This document shows positions 2,569 through 62,474 of a stretch of DNA of 64,000 nucleotides, piece after piece. The stretch's first letter is position 1. Every line of letters begins with the position of its first letter. Origin of the DNA: Octopus vulgaris. Taxonomy: Eukaryota. Where the stretch lies: positions 14,198,001 to 14,262,000 of the forward strand of contig OX597832.1 of assembly GCA_951406725.2 (NCBI GenBank), given 5' to 3'. The notes below the pieces were generated by a model. The model made no database searches and was not told where the DNA came from. It was given only the letters and a program-made list of their open reading frames with translations. Made by a program: the position numbers and the translations under genes.

Positions 2569-5284
2569 TGCATAACACACGCAGACGCATTCACACGCAT
2601 ACGCACATACAGGCGGACACATACATACAAACTTGCATTAAAAGATGACCATTTTCCTGAAAGTCGTGAGAGAAAAAGCTCAGATCATGAGAATTTTCTG
2701 AAACTCCTCTTCCTCCCCCTCGAAACGTTTACCCACAAATCCCTAGATACTCTGAAGCCACAACATCTAAAAGGTATTTCAAGAAAAGTATCCATTTTTC
2801 TCGATGATATGGGGGAAAACTTCAGGGGCGTATACATCTGTATTGATGCCCTCTTCCCTCCGCTCTCTTTCAAACACACACACAGTGCAAAGCTTACATA
2901 TGGACAGCCTAATTGAAATATATATATTACTTTGAGGTAAAACTTGACAAACTGTTACTCCTCCCCCTGTCATTGGACTACCGTTTGGAAAAAAAAGGAT
3001 TATGAATGTAATAAAATAATGAAAGAAATATTTACTAAACAAGTGAGAACTTTTATGTAAAGAAATAATTACACGTAAAATATCATAACAAATTGGGAAT
3101 TAAATGTAAAAATATTATCAAGTGGCGAGCAGAAAACCGCCAGCAGAGCGTCTTCCTGTTAATACAGTCTTGAAGTAGCTCGATATATTTTAATTACAGA
3201 TTCAATGCATTCATATTATGTATCGGTATAAGATTATGCAATCAGCAGGTCAGCGGAGATTTTTTTTACGAATAGGAAACACTGCAAAGAAACATTTTGC
3301 TTCAAGAAACTTTTTCATCATTACATATACGCATTTAGAACAAAATATTTCTGTTATTATAATAGTATGATTGTAAAGTGTCTTACAATTTGCTTTCGTT
3401 ACACAAGTGGAGGACGGGATCAACATCGTTTCAATTGTTTGCAACTTTACAGCTCTCTTGTACTCCTGAAGATAGGAAATGTGACAATATCTTGTTAAAG
3501 TAAGTGTTATTCTTCTATGATATAAATTGCCTACTATCAACCACATTTGTATCACACCAACTTTAATTTTACCGATTCCTGTAGAAGGCAATATACAATG
3601 CTAAAATTATAAAAATGAAAAAAATATGTTAGCTAAATCGCATCAAAGTCTTTGCTGATATTTTCTTTCGGAGAAGAATTGTGCTGTATATGTAGAGCGT
3701 ATATCTGTTTAGATATACGTGTATTCACATGTGTGTGGATTACTGAGTGTAATAATAACGAAATACAAAATGAAAATATAATTAAAATATTTAAATCACT
3801 GGAACCAAAATATGTCATTGGTAAAATGCAGAAGTGAACTAGTGGAGTTAAATACATACGAGCATGTATAAATATCGGAGAAATAAATGAGCATGTGTAA
3901 GAGGGTTAGTATAGCAAAGGACGATAAATGAATTAAGAAACAGTAATAGGGGATGTTATGTGCGTTGATTTATTATTTCTTCAGATATTGTATTGTTTTA
4001 AAACTTGTTTCAAAACTATCTGTCATCATTTATTAATTACATTATTTTTCTTATCGATTTTTGTTTGCCAACGGATATTCTAAACGTTATTATGATTCTC
4101 TTTTGATTAATTGTACAAAGCATTCTACCAACCACCATCTTTGACTGGCATGTCAGCATGGAATGAATTATGAATATGGTTTAGTATCTATACAATAGGA
4201 TATTAAAAAAAGGGAAAAAAAAAATTCTGGGTTAAACAGAGTCAATTATTTTATGTATATTTATATCAATTTTGTGGTTTGTGTAATGTGGTCGATGGAG
4301 CGATTGTGTGCCTGTGTGTTCGTGGCGGCTGAATATAAATGTGTCTGCTTCTGGTTGTCTTTTGATAATTTGTATTTAATTTATCATTGTATCCATCTAA
4401 TTAATAGCGTCGGCTCGAAGTCCCGTTTTGTTATGCTCGACTAGTATAAAATTATTCACCGCAAAGCGGTAATATAAAAATTAGGAAGGCAAATATCAAG
4501 AAATAATTGTACTAAGCACACCACTGCTGTTAATCTATGAAAGTTAACTTGTTTTAGTTTTATTTTTCATATCATTTTATTTTCATTTCTTCTTCAAAAA
4601 ATTTCCACTATGATTCTCTGCTTTTCCTCTCGTCGGCTAATATTGCTTAGCAACAATTTGAGTATTTGACGAGATAATATCATTTGCTATCTGACTTGGC
4701 TAAACAAACCGTTTTCGATTCAGAGTTATTTCGAAGCCTCTATCGATCTGTTAATAATTTCAAATGGTCTTCTCCTGCTGCCAGTTCTCAAAGATTCAAT
4801 GAAGGAGAATAATTCATAGTACTACAATTGATGTTAGGCTTCTGGATTTAAAGATCGAGTTATATGGCGTTGGTAGAGGAGTATATTGTATTTGTGGATG
4901 CTGGCGTAAACTTTCATGCCTGTCTTTGTCAAAACCATCCTAAATGAATGGCAATAAAGACTAGCAATATTTAATGCATATTATTTCGCACATAATATAA
5001 GGCAAGTTATACTCAACGCAGTTGGGAAAAAAATTCATTCACCAATTTAAAGTAAAACCAAATGGGCCATGAACATATTCATATTCGCAACAATCAACAG
5101 CACTATCAATATACGGATATTCAAATTAACACATATTAGTAGCACTGTTCGTTTCTGCATTTAATTACTTTCTATAGAAACCCTTTGCAATTGCACATAA
5201 TGTAAAAGAAATGATGAAAGTGATGAGAAGTCAGACATAAAACCGCACACAAACCTATAAAGCACATTCTCACACACGCACACT

Positions 5285-13158: not shown

Positions 13159-13738
13159 GTAGGTGGATGAGGGGACGTAGGTGGCAATCAACAGCAACAA
13201 CAACCTTACTAGCATTAATATAAAGACCAGCAAGAAAAGCAAGAATGAAAGGAAAGAAAGAATATTTATATTATATATTCGGGTTTTATTTTCTGCTCTG
13301 ATATTAAAAGGGAAACGTGTTTTATTCATTGATTTTCGATAAAAGGGAAATGCTGGACAGCGTACCCAAAGAATAATAGAATGAGGGAGAGCTGATTTGA
13401 AACAAAAGAATGTAACACTGAAACAAAGAATTAAAGGAAGAACGAAAGAGAATGAACCAAGTATCATTTGTTGAATTAGACGTTCTACTAACCAATCTAA
13501 TGCTGAACTTATCATGAATGGATTGGCAAGCTAAGTCTATCGCTTTGATAATGTTTGTTGATTCTCAAACATAAAATTTGGATGAAATGTGGAGTCTATT
13601 TCTGTTACGTCCCAATCAATATTGTGATAGGAATTTAAGAATGATGGATAAGTTAAGGGGGAAAAATATGAGAGTTATTTTTCGGGAGATATCAATCTTA
13701 ACATATGCATTAATAGCAACAACAACGACGACAACAAT

Positions 13739-13780
<42 letters not shown>

Positions 13781-13805
13781 AATAATGATGATAATAATAA
13801 TAATA

Positions 13806-14533
13806 GACCAAAGCCTCCCCACCAGAAATTACCAAAAACATGTAATGAAAAGAAATATTACAAGTAACTGCAGAATATGTGGAGATGGACAAGAAACAAT
13901 AAATCATATTATCTCTAGCTGCCCAGTCCTGGCTAAGAAGGAATATATTCACAGACATGACAGAGTTGGAACCTACATACATTGGAAGCTATGCCAACAT
14001 TATGGAATAACAACAGAAAAAAGATGGTATAGGCACACACCAGAAAAGGTCACAGAAAACGAGAAAGCAACCATACTCTGGGATATGCCGATACACACAG
14101 ATAGAGAAATTAAGGCCAACAGACCAGATATAGTTGTCAGAGATCATGAAGAAAAAAAATGCTTTCTAATTGATGTATCAATACCGGCAGATGAACAACG
14201 TGTCTCTAAAAGAAATGGAGAAACTCTCAAAATACAAAGACCTGGAAATAGAGGTAACTAGAATGTGGAACCTGAAAACAGAAACAATTCCTATCATAGT
14301 AGGTGCATTAGGCATGATAAAAAAATATTCAGACAAATACATAACAAAAACACCAGGAATTACAAACACATATAACATACAGAAAATTGCACTATTAGGC
14401 ACTGCACACATCCTACGCAGAACACTTTCCATACAATAACCATCAGAGCATCACAACAAATCACAGCACATACCCAAGGCACACAGAGCTGCGCTCGGTA
14501 GTGAAGTGAAAGCACGCTATAAAAATAAAACTA

Positions 14534-33251: not shown

Positions 33252-33539
33252 AGAAGAAAGAAATGTCGATAGATATGGCACTTTAGCTTGGGAGGTTAAG
33301 CAGTTGTGGTCGATGAAAAAGTTAGTAGTAGTACCAATAATTTTCGAAGCCCTTGAGATAGTGAGTAAAAATCTTAAGAAGTACGTGAAACAAGTAGGGA
33401 CTCAAATATGGGTGAAGAAGTACTTGCAGGAAACAGCACTGCTTGGAATCACTCGAATACTTCGGAGGGTGCTCTGCCTTAGTTCACTGGAAGTGAATTG
33501 CTGGTTCCGTACTACACCTATATCGTTAGAAGCTGTGCA

Positions 33540-33540
<1 letters not shown>
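33252..33540 (+). mobile_element. Old R4/Dong-clade 3' end (different subfamily)
   Basis: LAWEVKQLWSMKKLVVVPII..AL..VSKNL...LQETALLGITRILRRVL, followed by (AAT)n. Confidence 0.85.
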
Positions 33541-33596
<56 letters not shown>

Positions 33597-33598
<2 letters not shown>

Positions 33599-34910
33599 GA
33601 TAATAGGTATCAACACTTTAGCTGTCCCAGTTATAAGTTACAGCTACAATATCCTTAACTGGACACGAAATGAACTGTCCAAAATAGATAGGAAAACAAG
33701 AAAAATACTGACAGGATCTAGGATGCATCACCCAAAATCTGACATAGAAAGACTATATATACAACGTATAGAAGGTGGTAGAGGCCTTATACAGCTGGAA
33801 AACTACTATAAAATAACCACCATAGGACTGCAAAAATACCTACTTCAGAAGGAAGGAAAACTGATCCAGCAAAACACGAGCAAAACAAAAAAAACTGTTC
33901 TCAGTATTTAAGGAAGCTGACAAATACAAACAAGAAATCATACCACCTAATAAACACAAAGAAGAAGAAGATGATGAAGAAACAACAAAAGCTATAAAAC
34001 AAATGAAATCCAAACTAAAAATAGAACAGCAACGAGCCATGATAAAACGATGGCAAGAAAAACCCTTCATGGTAAATACTGCACTAAACTAAACGCAAAA
34101 GAAATAGACAAAGAAAAATCCCAGCAATGGTTGAGAAGCTCAGGACTCAAAGCAGAAACAGAGGGATTTTTAATTGCAGCACAAGACCAAAGCCTCCCCA
34201 CCAGAAATTACCAAAAACATGTAATGAAAAGAAATATTACAAGTAACTGCAGAATATGTGGAGATGGACAAGAAACAATAAATCATATTATCTCTAGCTG
34301 CCCAGTCCTGGCTAAGAAGGAATATATTCACAGACATGACAGAGTTGGAACCTACATACATTGGAAGCTATGCCAACATTATGGAATAACAACAGAAAAA
34401 AGATGGTATAGGCACACACCAGAAAAGGTCACAGAAAACGAGAAAGCAACCATACTCTGGGATATGCCGATACACACAGATAGAGAAATTAAGGCCAACA
34501 GACCAGATATAGTTGTCAGAGATCATGAAGAAAAAAATGCTTTCTAATTGATGTATCAATACCGGCAGATGACAACGTGTCTCTAAAAGAAATGGAGAAA
34601 CTCTCAAAATACAAAGACCTGGAAATAGAGGTAACTACAATGTGGAACCTGAAAACAGAAACAATTCCTATCATAGTAGGTGCATTAGGCATGATAAAAA
34701 AATATTCAGACAAATACATAACAAAAACACCAGGACTTACAAACACATATAACATACAGAAAATTGCACTACTAGGCACTGCACACATCCTACGCAGAAC
34801 ACTTTCCATACAATAACCATCAGAGCATCACAACAAATCACAGCACATACCCAAGGCACACAGAGCTGCGCTCGGTAGTGAAGTGAAAGCACGCTATAAA
34901 AATAAAACTA

Positions 34911-37620: not shown

Positions 37621-38227
37621 TGATGCATGTCTCTTGGAATAAGCCATCATGGACTAAGATTTCTATTTATTAGAGCATTGCTAAATGACGTGCAGTAACG
37701 CATAAGTCGATCTATTCCGCTCTATCTTTACTAAGATATAACTTAATCACAGAGTAGGTTCCAGCTTTGCTTAAATGAGAAATAAATTTTACCGAAGAGT
37801 TGATAAAGGAACCATCAGTATATATTACATAACAGCTGCCGAAATAGAAATGCATACTTCCTTTTTAATTCTCTGTTATACGTTTTAGCGAATTATATAA
37901 AATTAAACTTGAAATTTCTTTTTGTTTTTCACTTATATCCATGGAAATATTATTACAGCACTAAATTTGTTAGTAAATTGCCTTCGCGTATTCCAGCCCA
38001 TGTTAAACACTACTGAATAACATATGAACTTTCAGGGTGCATTTAGATCTCCTTCAATCTGGTGATGCTGTCTATGTTTTCCATTATACTGAACAAGTAG
38101 AAAAATATACACAAATTATTCTTGGAATAGATTCCTCTGTCGCTGTGTAAAGACAACATCACATCAACCCAACATATATAAGAATGCAACTCTCTCCCTT
38201 ACACTGTATTCTGTTTTTTCTGTTATT

Positions 38228-38409
38228 CTTTTATTTATTTCAGTCATTAGAAAGCGGCCATGTTTCAGCACCGCTTTAGTCGAGCAAATAAACTCCAGAA
38301 CTTATTCTTTGTATGCTTAGTACTTATTCTCTCTCCTCGAACCGCTGGTTTACAGGGACATAAAACACCAACATCGGTTGTCAAGAATTATTGGAGGAAA
38401 AACACAGAC

Positions 38410-38444
<35 letters not shown>

Positions 38445-38600
38445 CAGGATAACTTCATTCAGTTTCCGTCTACCAAATCCACTCAGAAGTCTTTCATCGT
38501 GTATAGTAGAAGACACTTGCCCCGGATAGCACCCAGTGAGACTTAGCCTCGAACCATGAGGTTGTGAAGCATGTTATTTACTACACAGCCACTACTGTGC
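38228..38600 (-). mobile_element. tRNA-derived SINE with internal (TA)n and LINE-type tail
   Basis: Minus strand GTGGCTGTGTAGTAA head, CATGGTTCGAG B-box-like motif, GGCAAGTGTCTTCTACTATA, internal microsatellite, tail GCGGTGCTGAAACATGGCCGC..GACTGAAA. Confidence 0.85.
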
Positions 38601-40084: not shown

Positions 40085-40132
<48 letters not shown>

Positions 40133-40204
40133 ACATTATATGTACGTATACATGTATATCTATGATATAAATATATATATATATTTATATATACACATAT
40201 ATGC

Positions 40205-40247
<43 letters not shown>

Positions 40248-40315
40248 CATACATATATAGGATATATATATATATGTATATGCATATATATATTATATAT
40301 ATATATATGCATACG

Positions 40316-40349
<34 letters not shown>

Positions 40350-40424
40350 TACTTATATATACTTATATATATATATGTGTGTGTGTGTGTGTATATACAT
40401 GTATCTATGTATACATATATATAT

Positions 40425-40648
40425 CGTCGCCGTTCGCGTTCTAGCGGTTCCTCCGAGGGTGCTCTTCGCCGAGTGTCCGAGGCGGCCGGTACGTTCACTG
40501 TGAAAAAATTAGAGTGCTCAGAGCGAGCCCCGCCGGCTTGCATACGAAAAGCATGGAATGATGGAAAATGGCCTCGTCCGCGCGTCATCCGTCGGTCTCC
40601 GTTCACGACGAGGCAATGATCGAAGGGAGCGATCGGGGCCACTCGTTT
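40425..40648 (+). pseudogene. 18S rRNA fragment (V4 region and flank), retrocopied
   Basis: GTGCTCTTCGCCGAGTGTCC..ACTGTGAAAAAATTAGAGTGCTCA..GCATGGAATGATGGAA..GAGGCAATGATCGAAGGGA..CGGGGCCACTCGT is collinear with conserved eukaryotic 18S motifs (ACTTTGAAAAAATTAGAGTG; GGAATAATGGAATAGG; ATGATTAAGAGGGAC..GGGGGCATTCGT). Confidence 0.9.
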
Positions 40649-40723
40649 AAATGGCGGTGCCCCAGCATGGCCACAGCTCATAAGCTGAAACTGGAAAAAT
40701 CAAAAAAAAAAATCAAAATCAAA
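40649..40723 (+). mobile_element. LINE/SINE 3' tail fused to the 18S fragment
   Basis: ATGGCGGTGCCCCAGCATGGCCACAGCT(CATA)AGCTGAAAC plus A-rich repeat. The same tail is at 62393 and is related to the tail of the 38228 SINE. Confidence 0.85.
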
Positions 40724-50154: not shown

Positions 50155-50159
<5 letters not shown>

Positions 50160-50700
50160 TAGATAAACTTAGATTAGTTTCGACCAAAGATTGGTCCAGA
50201 CCATGTCTAACTTAATAGCACCACCTAATAGGATTATTCGAATCCTGTTTAAGTCAAGTTTTGTTTATGGTCCATTTAAGTAGTGAGTTTTTGTTGGGTG
50301 AGTTGTATCCAATTATAGATGGCTTATCTGGTATTCTTTGAAGGAATCTATCCAGACTCCGTTTAAAGTTGATGGGATCCTTTTCCTCTTTGATCTCTTT
50401 CGGGACAATGTTATATAGGGCAGGGCCTGTTGAGGAAAAGAAATTATGTCGCAGTGTACATGTATGCTGTGTTCTTGAATTGGGCAGGGGACGTATGGCC
50501 CGTGGTCCCACTCTTGGATGGACCTTGTAGCTAATGTTCAGGTCATTTGGGCAAAGTTGGCGGTATATTCTCCACATCGTACAAATGATGTACATCTCAC
50601 GGCGACGCTGGAGAGAGTAGAGCTTCAAGGCTTTAAAGCGATCCGAATAATCGAGAGCAGTCATGCCTTCAATTCGTTTAGTGAGTGCCCTCTGGGGTGT
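50155..50700 (-). mobile_element. CR1/L2-group LINE 3' end, 5'-truncated, flanked by (TA)n
   Basis: QRALTKRIEGM..LDYSDRFKALKLYSLQRRRE..GPALYNIVP..FKRSLDRFLQRIPD, stop at 50254. 3' UTR GGTGGTGC..CATGGTC..GAAAC and (ATCTAAGTTT)2 tail. Confidence 0.88.
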
Positions 50701-62392: not shown

Positions 62393-62459
62393 ATGGCGGT
62401 GCCCCAGCATGGCCACAGCGCCTGAGCTGAAACTAGATAAAAAAATAAATAAATAAACA
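62393..62459 (+). mobile_element. Solo LINE/SINE 3' tail in (TA)n
   Basis: ATGGCGGTGCCCCAGCATGGCCACAGC..AGCTGAAACT plus (AAAT)n; 27 nt identical to 40651-40677. Confidence 0.85.
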
Positions 62460-62474
62460 ATATATATATATATA

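What the first reader, a model, noticed from the sequence alone, without database searches (positions are those of the whole stretch)
40425..40723. 18S rRNA fragment fused to a LINE/SINE 3' tail: chimeric retrocopy or candidate 18S-derived SINE
Seen: ~225 nt of GC-rich 18S V4-region sequence joined in sense orientation to GGCGGTGCCCCAGCATGGCCACAGCT-CATA-AGCTGAAAC and an A-rich repeat, embedded in (TA)n. The same tail occurs solo at 62393 and in related form on a tRNA SINE and a CR1/L2-group LINE. Known: LINE RT can switch templates onto abundant RNAs, and SINE heads from tRNA, 7SL, 5S, 28S and snRNA are described. If this junction is multicopy it would be an 18S-derived SINE family.
Basis: partly seen in the sequence, partly recalled or inferred. 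Interest (0 to 1): 0.8.

Follow-up and report, generated by a model that had tools for sequence, protein, structure and literature searches.

The report
LINE tail capturing cellular RNA ends
This single-copy piece of the host's 18S ribosomal RNA gene joined to the last ~75 bases of a young retrotransposon is not a new SINE family but one of dozens of such joins (tRNA precursors, 5S, U6, vault) made at almost the same nucleotide, likely because the element's reverse transcriptase jumps from a short tail RNA onto U-ended cellular RNAs, a step that would supply raw material for new SINEs.

Summary
The chimera is real in the assembly: 222 nt of host 18S (100% identical to the rDNA array, with a 40-nt deletion), two non-templated T's, then the 3' tail of a young ~3.1-kb single-ORF LINE, inside (TA)n. 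It is not an 18S-derived SINE. Both junctions are single-copy, and two other 18S-tail chimeras use other breakpoints.

The wider pattern matters more. 41 of 80 sampled LINE-derived copies stop within 6 nt of the tail hairpin, about 80 times the per-base rate further upstream. 37 of 100 copies with TTT before the tail carry a sense RNA head (mostly pre-tRNAs with trailers, 5S, U6), against 0 of 20 without. All 10 U6/5S-anchored chimeras with this LINE join 2-4 nt before the hairpin. A 694-copy SINE subfamily has the same junction.

The likely mechanism is reverse-transcriptase template jumping from a trimmed tail RNA onto oligo-U ends. LINE-RNA chimeras are known (U6-L1, platypus U6-L2, 28S-L1). 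I found no description of the nucleotide-precise hotspot in nine literature searches. Public reads neither confirmed nor refuted the junction.

The parts
40087..40424 (.). (TA)n-rich microsatellite, 5' flank and likely insertion target
   Evidence: TRF array. Most tail copies sit in TA repeats.
40425..40444 (+). First 20 nt of host 18S rRNA, followed by a 40-nt deletion bounded by CGGT microhomology
   Evidence: Identical to the rDNA 60-41 nt upstream of the second piece. Deletion junction unique in the genome.
40445..40646 (+). 202 nt of host 18S rRNA, sense
   Evidence: 100% identical to rDNA array copies; array is Rfam SSU_rRNA_eukarya.
40647..40648 (+). TT, templated by neither 18S (continues ATTGCG) nor LINE (has CC here); likely a uridylated 3' end
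   Evidence: for the sequence. Uridylation is an inference.
40649..40694 (+). 3' tail of a young APE+RT LINE: AAAT leader, hairpin 1 (40652-40673), hairpin 2 (40674-40687), GAAAC
   Evidence: Matches the LINE from nt 3024 of 3110. Fold (z -1.9, modest). The 25-nt core has 8,944 exact copies.
40695..40723 (+). Terminal short tandem repeat (AAAATC-type) of the LINE subfamily
   Evidence: Same repeat on other copies of the tail subtype.
62393..62460 (+). Tail-only insertion of another subfamily of the same LINE, starting 2 nt before the hairpin, in (TA)n
   Evidence: matches the LINE from nt 3026.

Best explanation
This locus is a single-copy join of host 18S rRNA sequence to the 3' tail of a young LINE, likely made in one retrotransposition event when the LINE's reverse transcriptase finished a short tail RNA and jumped onto the U-tailed 3' end of an 18S decay fragment. 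Shown: source of each part, single copy, and a genome-wide break point 2-4 nt before the tail hairpin shared by tail-only insertions and by pre-tRNA, 5S, U6, vault and 18S chimeras. Inferred steps: (1) the LINE protein binds the two 3' hairpins and primes at a (TA)n site from the terminal repeat; (2) the LINE RNA has often been trimmed from its 5' side up to the protein-bound hairpin, leaving a 2-5-nt overhang; (3) at that RNA end the enzyme either joins the target, giving tail-only copies, or adds a base or two (A) and jumps to an RNA ending in U's; (4) here it copied 202 nt of 18S, skipped 40 nt through CGGT microhomology, copied 20 nt more and joined the (TA)n. With no known internal promoter in the head, the copy is probably dead on arrival. 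The same process with a pre-tRNA or 5S head would give a SINE-shaped element.
For: Single copy. Parent LINE: two 99.3% identical 3.15-kb copies with the same 5' start and Pfam RVT_1 + Exo_endo_phos. Hotspot: of the first 93 core matches on C1, 12 are one SINE subfamily and 1 another SINE; of the other 80, 41 stop within 6 nt of the hairpin, 18 stop at 14-732 nt, 20 run beyond ~745 nt and 1 has a short internal deletion; the per-base rate ratio is ~82. Genome-wide, 1,507 of 8,944 cores have AAAT preceded by a non-LINE base (17%), matching 16 of 93 in the sample. Heads: 37 of the 100 listed TTTAAAT copies (179 in all) carry a sense RNA head: 23 tRNA, 6 5S, 3 U6, 3 SINE heads, 1 vault, 1 18S. Controls: 0 of 20 copies with a non-T before TAAAT, 1 of 100 upstream windows, 1 low-complexity antisense hit (Rfam support). 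Head-anchored sample, unbiased for junction: all 3 U6 and 7 5S chimeras with this LINE join 2-4 nt before the hairpin. 18 of those 60 loci join U6 or 5S to the 5' start of a SINE, the signature of end-to-end jumping. RNA-level capture: one tRNA-Gly trailer matches a gene-like locus (L348) up to its T-run and is then joined to five different partners; a long insertion in L115 fits an unspliced pre-tRNA intron. 10 of the 11 tail subtypes (the 'other' bin aside) seen more than once in the sample occur both on LINE-continuous and on tail-only copies; the exception is the SINE-only one. R2 RT template jumping needs 1-2 non-templated bases complementary to the acceptor 3' end (PMC8857657, passages).
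Against: No RNA data show a tail RNA with a fixed 5' end, so trimming and its enzyme are untested. Reads did not confirm this junction. No target-site duplication of 7 nt or more convincingly brackets head plus tail in 35 loci tested, L130 perhaps excepted, so single-event insertion is not shown by TSD. One chimera (L343, tRNA-Gly plus 417 nt of LINE) joins internally. Not all heads end in U (L258, L263). 63 of 100 TTTAAAT copies have no recognised head, and the head library was built largely from the chimeras themselves, so 14 of the 37 calls are self-matches resting on Rfam, ARAGORN or similarity among copies. The 0-of-20 control came from one tail subtype and is small. The hotspot sample is one chromosome end. 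The deleted 40 nt are not a clean hairpin.
Confidence: 0.55

Rival explanations
1. Same enzyme, intact template: the reverse transcriptase stalls or lets go of full-length LINE RNA just after copying through the hairpins it was bound to, and then switches template or ends.
For: Explains the hotspot and the tail-only copies equally well and needs no nuclease. The break sits exactly where the recognised structure ends.
Against: Joins to SINE 5' starts (18 of 60 head-anchored loci) show that jumps occur at true RNA 5' ends. Internal junctions are rare (1 of the 12 head-anchored chimeras with this LINE), although 18 of 80 copies truncate internally.
Confidence: 0.22
2. RNA ligation before reverse transcription, as shown for U6/L1: RtcB joins a cyclic-phosphate RNA end to a 5'-OH LINE fragment cut at a fixed site.
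For: Established for human U6/L1 (PMC6789731, passages). An rRNA break could carry a cyclic phosphate (recalled). U6 is among the heads.
Against: That paper reports strongly reduced ligation with a 3'-OH donor or a 5'-triphosphate acceptor. Pre-tRNA trailers end in 3'-OH and SINE transcripts start with triphosphate (recalled), yet both dominate here. Ligation does not explain the tail-only copies with no head.
Confidence: 0.12
3. Two separate DNA events: an rDNA fragment was patched into the (TA)n, and a tail-only copy later inserted at its edge.
For: Dispersed 18S fragments without a nearby tail are common: of the 21 examined, only L208 has a tail at its end. Tail-only copies number in the thousands. 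No TSD shows a single event.
Against: No rDNA continues behind the tail or within 3 kb on either side. The target preference is TA repeats, not GC-rich DNA. Heads are in sense orientation with T's at the joint in dozens of loci.
Confidence: 0.05
4. An 18S-derived SINE family, of which this is one copy.
For: It has head-plus-LINE-tail anatomy, and 28S-headed SINEs exist (PMC7245038, passage).
Against: One copy of each junction. Other 18S chimeras have other breakpoints.
Confidence: 0.02
5. Assembly or library artefact.
For: The 18S part is 100% identical to the rDNA, and no public contig spans the junction.
Against: It sits in a chromosome-scale contig, has the same junction nucleotide as dozens of unrelated loci, and ends in a proper terminal repeat.
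Confidence: 0.04

Closest known systems
U6-L2 and U6-Mon-1 chimeras of platypus; U6-L2/RTE/SINE chimeras of Anolis (Doucet et al. 2015, PMC4476161)
   Same: A stringent, tail-recognising LINE and its SINE carry U6 at the 5' end; often 5'-truncated U6 before a short LINE piece; short or no TSD (section 10 read).
   Different: That section treats U6 only and gives no nucleotide-level junction hotspot. Here the heads include pre-tRNAs with trailers, 5S, vault and 18S, and the junction is fixed 2-4 nt before the hairpin.
Human RNA/L1 chimeras, including 28S rRNA/L1 (Law and Burns 2025, PMC11838501) and U6/L1 (Moldovan et al. 2019, PMC6789731)
   Same: rRNA fragments of similar size (28S median 269 nt, n=18, 83% sense) fused 5' of a LINE.
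   Different: L1 is variably truncated at the joint. tRNA heads there are mostly antisense halves (21 loci), here sense precursors. '18S' does not occur in that paper's main text.
SINEs with rRNA- or snRNA-derived heads (SINE3, MeloSINE/28S, SINEU)
   Same: Non-coding RNA head plus LINE-derived tail.
   Different: They are multicopy with a uniform junction (PMC4494074, PMC7245038, passages). This locus is single-copy.
[quoted passage not shown]
   Same: Continuous cDNA across separate templates via 1-2 non-templated bases (PMC8857657) fits the U-ended heads and the joins to SINE 5' starts.
   Different: Shown in vitro for a different clade; not tested for this protein.

Membership tests
SINE family (18S-derived) | Many dispersed copies with one uniform head-tail junction | tested here: not met
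   1 match each.
SINE family (18S-derived) | 3' tail shared with a partner LINE | tested here: met
SINE family (18S-derived) | Head supplies a promoter or the element is transcribed | not tested
   18S has no known internal Pol III promoter (recalled); no RNA reads were laid.
LINE-mediated chimeric retrocopy | Cellular RNA copy fused 5' of a LINE 3' end in the same orientation | tested here: met
LINE-mediated chimeric retrocopy | Independent events with varied heads, and many more plain LINE copies than chimeras | tested here: met
LINE-mediated chimeric retrocopy | One target-site duplication around head plus tail | tested here: inconclusive
   Flanks are (TA)n; no convincing TSD of 7 nt or more in 35 loci, L130 perhaps excepted. 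Platypus U6-L2 TSDs are 1-9 bp.
RtcB-ligated U6/L1-type chimera | Donor 2',3'-cyclic phosphate and acceptor 5'-OH; chimeric RNA precedes reverse transcription | not testable with these tools
   End chemistry cannot be read from DNA; the head types argue against it indirectly.
Non-LTR retrotransposon with APE and RT (parent element) | Endonuclease and reverse transcriptase domains in one ORF; 3' stem-loop plus short tandem repeat | tested here: met
   Pfam PF14529, PF03372, PF00078; tail fold; terminal repeats.
CR1 clade (parent element) | RT groups with CR1-clade references in a tree | not tested
   Homologues carried no clade names. The CR1-like label rests on a recalled C-terminal motif and on stem-loop tails reported for mollusc CR1.

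The most novel reading that the evidence does not exclude
This LINE family produces a defined ~60-75-nt tail RNA-protein particle, with its 5' end fixed at the hairpin base, that works as a general tagging device. It appends a retrotransposition-competent tail to any U-ended RNA (pre-tRNA, 5S, U6, vault, uridylated rRNA fragments, prematurely terminated SINE transcripts). The genome thus holds a hundred or more ready-made proto-SINEs, one 694-copy SINE subfamily arose at the same junction, and the fixed length of LINE-derived SINE tails in general is set by this footprint.
Probability: 0.35. Interest if true: 0.75.

Novelty: new variant of a known kind. Interest (0 to 1): 0.5.

Why it matters
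SINEs are thought to arise when a Pol III RNA acquires a LINE's 3' tail by template switching, but the intermediates are rarely seen. This genome shows them in quantity, with intact pre-tRNA or 5S heads and an intact tail joined at one place, beside a successful SINE subfamily with the same junction (694 exact copies). That makes two questions directly testable: what fixes the length of LINE-derived SINE tails, and why most such fusions stay single. The heads also record nascent Pol III 3' ends and, probably, uridylated rRNA fragments in the germ line. For annotation, these loci will inflate tRNA, 5S and U6 gene counts. The 18S locus by itself is a dead one-off.

Tried and rejected
18S SINE: rejected.

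Rfam at gathering threshold and ARAGORN on the window found nothing.

Read support: three contig runs break at both repeats and the raw-read run laid 0 reads. No test either way.

First automatic head classification: discarded, because relaxed ARAGORN called false tRNAs in TA repeats. It was redone with a curated library, which missed one true U6 head (L156) through its GC filter.

TSD search: inconclusive.

A hairpin-skip explanation of the 40-nt deletion: the fold does not isolate the deleted stretch (z 0.45).

A tail-only mini-element with its own master copy: unlikely, since tail subtypes track LINE subfamilies.

Targeted insertion behind real tRNA or 5S genes: unlikely, since many heads are 5'-truncated or begin directly after TA repeats, and the gene-like tRNA-Gly locus L348 and seven clustered U6 genes carry no tail.

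A hammerhead ribozyme in the tail: considered by eye and dropped (no CUGANGA core; motif recalled).

Further 18S 3'-end chimeras: one search gave one locus (L350), followed by a poly-A/GA run and a SINE start, not this tail. 28S, 5.8S and spacer heads: none among 160 tail loci blasted against the rDNA unit, but no 28S-anchored search was made.

LINE clade: not resolved. Earlier findings of the scan: none.

Full report
1. Observation. Window 40425-40723 reads, in order: (TA)n; 20 nt of 18S; a 40-nt gap; 202 nt of 18S; TT; AAATGGCGGTGCCCCAGCATGGCCACAGCTCATAAGCTGAAACTGG; an AAAATC-type repeat; TA repeats. The 202 nt are 100% identical to the genome's rDNA array on C20. That array matches Rfam SSU, 5.8S and LSU and has an 18,349-nt unit. 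The gap is bounded by CGGT on both sides. No other rDNA lies in the window or within 3 kb. The host is probably an octopod: the only species-named hit among the 120 listed LINE homologues is from Argonauta hians, 62% identical. Public reads gave no test: contigs break at both high-copy parts, and the raw-read run (about 3% read) laid nothing.

2. Not a SINE. The 18S-tail junction has one match with two mismatches allowed and one when 0-25 nt may intervene. The deletion junction has one. The 40 best-scored matches to 40600-40700 include no second copy across the junction. Two other 18S chimeras turned up. L208, among 21 dispersed or diverged 18S loci examined, ends 93 nt earlier on a related tail and is single-copy. 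L222 has 17 nt of the mature 18S 3' end, T's, and this tail.

3. The tail's parent. The 25-nt core has 8,944 exact matches. Many continue upstream into a young LINE. Two copies are 99.3% identical over 3,152 nt and begin at the same base, 5 nt before an ATG; the ORF has endonuclease and RT domains. Each of the two has one frame break. The LINE reads ...CAACACC AAAT GGCGG, and the tail folds into two adjacent hairpins starting at the T of AAAT (z about -1.9, so modest on its own). I did not place the clade by a tree; CR1-like is recalled. The window's own LINE fragment is only a distant relative.

4. A break hotspot. I took the first 93 core matches on C1. Twelve belong to one tRNA-type SINE subfamily and one to another SINE; these 13 were left out. 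Of the other 80, 41 keep at most 6 nt of LINE before the hairpin, 18 end between 14 and 732 nt, 20 run past ~745 nt, and one has a short internal deletion. The per-base rate is about 82 times higher at the hairpin base. Some of the 18 ends may be alignment drop-outs, which would only raise the ratio. Genome-wide, 1,507 cores have AAAT after a non-C base, 17%, as in the sample (16 of 93). Loose ends in three public runs cluster at 40646-40649 too. Tail subtypes appear on both long and tail-only copies, so tail-only copies arise repeatedly from the LINE. The solo copy at 62393 is one of them.

5. Heads at the hotspot. 179 cores are preceded by TTTAAAT; I examined the 100 listed. 37 carry a sense RNA head ending within 30 nt of the tail: 23 tRNA (19 long, 4 stubs), 6 5S, 3 U6, 3 SINE heads, 1 vault, 1 18S (Rfam; a fourth U6, L156, was seen). 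Controls: 0 of 20 copies with a non-T before TAAAT and 1 of 100 upstream windows, and one low-complexity antisense hit. Scaling 37% to 179 gives about 66 for this junction form alone; other forms (AAT, AT, AAAAT) would raise it to perhaps 100-300, which is an extrapolation. tRNA heads keep 3' trailers up to a T-run rather than CCA, and L115 has a long anticodon-loop insertion that fits an intron. One tRNA-Gly trailer occurs at 7 loci: a gene-like locus with no tail (L348), this tail, 417 nt of this LINE, two related tails, a SINE start, and one with no recognised partner.

Because that set was chosen by junction, I also anchored on heads. Of the first 30 of 206 U6 3' ends, 7 are clustered genes, 16 join a tail of this or a related family (six of these share flanks and are one duplicated event), 5 join a SINE 5' start, 1 joins U6 and 1 is unassigned. 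Of the first 30 of 135 5S ends, 12 join a tail, 13 a SINE start and 5 something else. All 10 that carry this LINE join 2-4 nt before the hairpin, and none has a longer LINE piece. For most related tails the parent was not identified, so their offsets are judged by eye. The SINE subfamily noted above joins at AAT-GGCGG and has 694 exact copies.

6. Mechanism. Shown: parts, copy number, hotspot, head types. Inferred: the LINE protein primes at TA repeats and copies the terminal repeat and both hairpins. It then reaches an RNA 5' end left by trimming up to the bound hairpin; a few-nucleotide overhang is what 5'-3' exonucleases leave at a block (recalled). There it either joins the target or jumps to another RNA's 3' end. 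R2 RT jumps through 1-2 non-templated bases that pair with the acceptor end (PMC8857657, passages), which would favour U-ended RNAs if the added bases are A. The joins to SINE 5' starts show that jumps happen at true RNA ends. The TT here would then be a uridylated rRNA break, and the 40-nt gap a slip on CGGT. I put about 0.9 on a single LINE-made chimera and 0.55 on this full path. RT stalling on intact RNA (0.22) fits nearly as well. RtcB ligation (0.12) fits U6 but not 3'-OH trailers or triphosphate SINE starts (PMC6789731, passages; end chemistries recalled). Against my reading: no TSD proof, one internal junction (L343), some heads not ending in U, and no RNA data.

7. Known relatives and novelty. 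U6 fused to short L2 pieces and to SINEs is described in platypus and lizard (PMC4476161, passages and section 10). 28S/L1 and tRNA/L1 chimeras are described in human (PMC11838501, abstract and passages). Template switching as the source of SINE tails and heads is an old proposal (same section; PMC4824008, PMC4494074, PMC7245038, passages), and the criteria in PMC4494074 and PMC7245038 separate SINEs from sums of chimeras, as applied here. Passages of PMC4758252, PMC10294476, PMC3747384 and PMC11203168 added nothing on this pattern. Nine searches listed no paper on an 18S/LINE chimera, an octopus chimera set or a hairpin-base truncation hotspot. The library lacks most subscription journals and Repbase, I read no supplements (junction tables of PMC4476161 may bear on the hotspot), and the octopus SINEs of Ohshima and Okada 1994 were seen only as a citation.

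8. Verdict. The locus is an ordinary dead chimeric retrocopy with an uncommon head; the 18S-SINE idea fails. The process behind it is a new variant of a known kind, notable for its precision, frequency and range of heads. Interest 0.5.

Noticed in passing
L094, L101, L109 and others; G000-wide: A tRNA-type SINE subfamily carries this LINE's tail joined at AAT-GGCGG, 694 exact copies. Copies of the same head cut at internal T-runs are joined to the tail anew (L140, L162, L184), which looks like ongoing tail swapping.
   Followed up: partly
L227-L235, L244, L246, L249, L250, L252, L256, L272, L275, L279, L282: At least three related tail families (GCATCAGC, GGTGGTGCCCC with AAGGATTT repeat, and the SINE tail CTCCAGC) also take U6 or 5S heads close to their hairpin base; most parents not identified.
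   Followed up: partly
L172 and L183: Two unlinked chimeras share an unidentified GC-rich head ending in a T-run; no Rfam hit at E 0.01. Possibly an unannotated Pol III RNA.
   Followed up: partly
L073, L190, L191: Short tandem repeats of flank-like sequence directly 5' of the tail, suggesting repeated priming or slippage on target DNA at the 5' junction.
   Followed up: no
L143-L144 (G000:C20:23979000-23998999): Host rDNA unit of 18.3 kb with a very long 18S (~2,640 nt) and 28S (~4,900 nt by the Rfam match).
   Followed up: no
L236-L242 (G000:C1 ~139.42 Mb): Tandem cluster of seven U6 genes at ~1.1-1.4 kb spacing; L230-L235 are six duplicated copies of one U6-tail chimera at ~20 kb spacing.
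   Followed up: no
window 50155-50700, minus strand: 5'-truncated fragment of a more distant LINE family (39% aa to P0001) with an analogous hairpin tail and TAAGTTTATC-type end repeat.
   Followed up: partly
window 38225-38600, minus strand: Decayed tRNA-type SINE with internal (TA)n and a related tail.
   Followed up: no
window 13575-14261 and 33483-34547, plus strand: Two near-identical fragments of another retroelement ORF with a C-terminal Cys/His motif; family not tested.
   Followed up: no
L350 (G000:C25:17729934-17732956): 84 nt of the 18S 3' end followed by T's, a poly-A/GA run and a SINE start; possibly another rRNA capture.
   Followed up: partly
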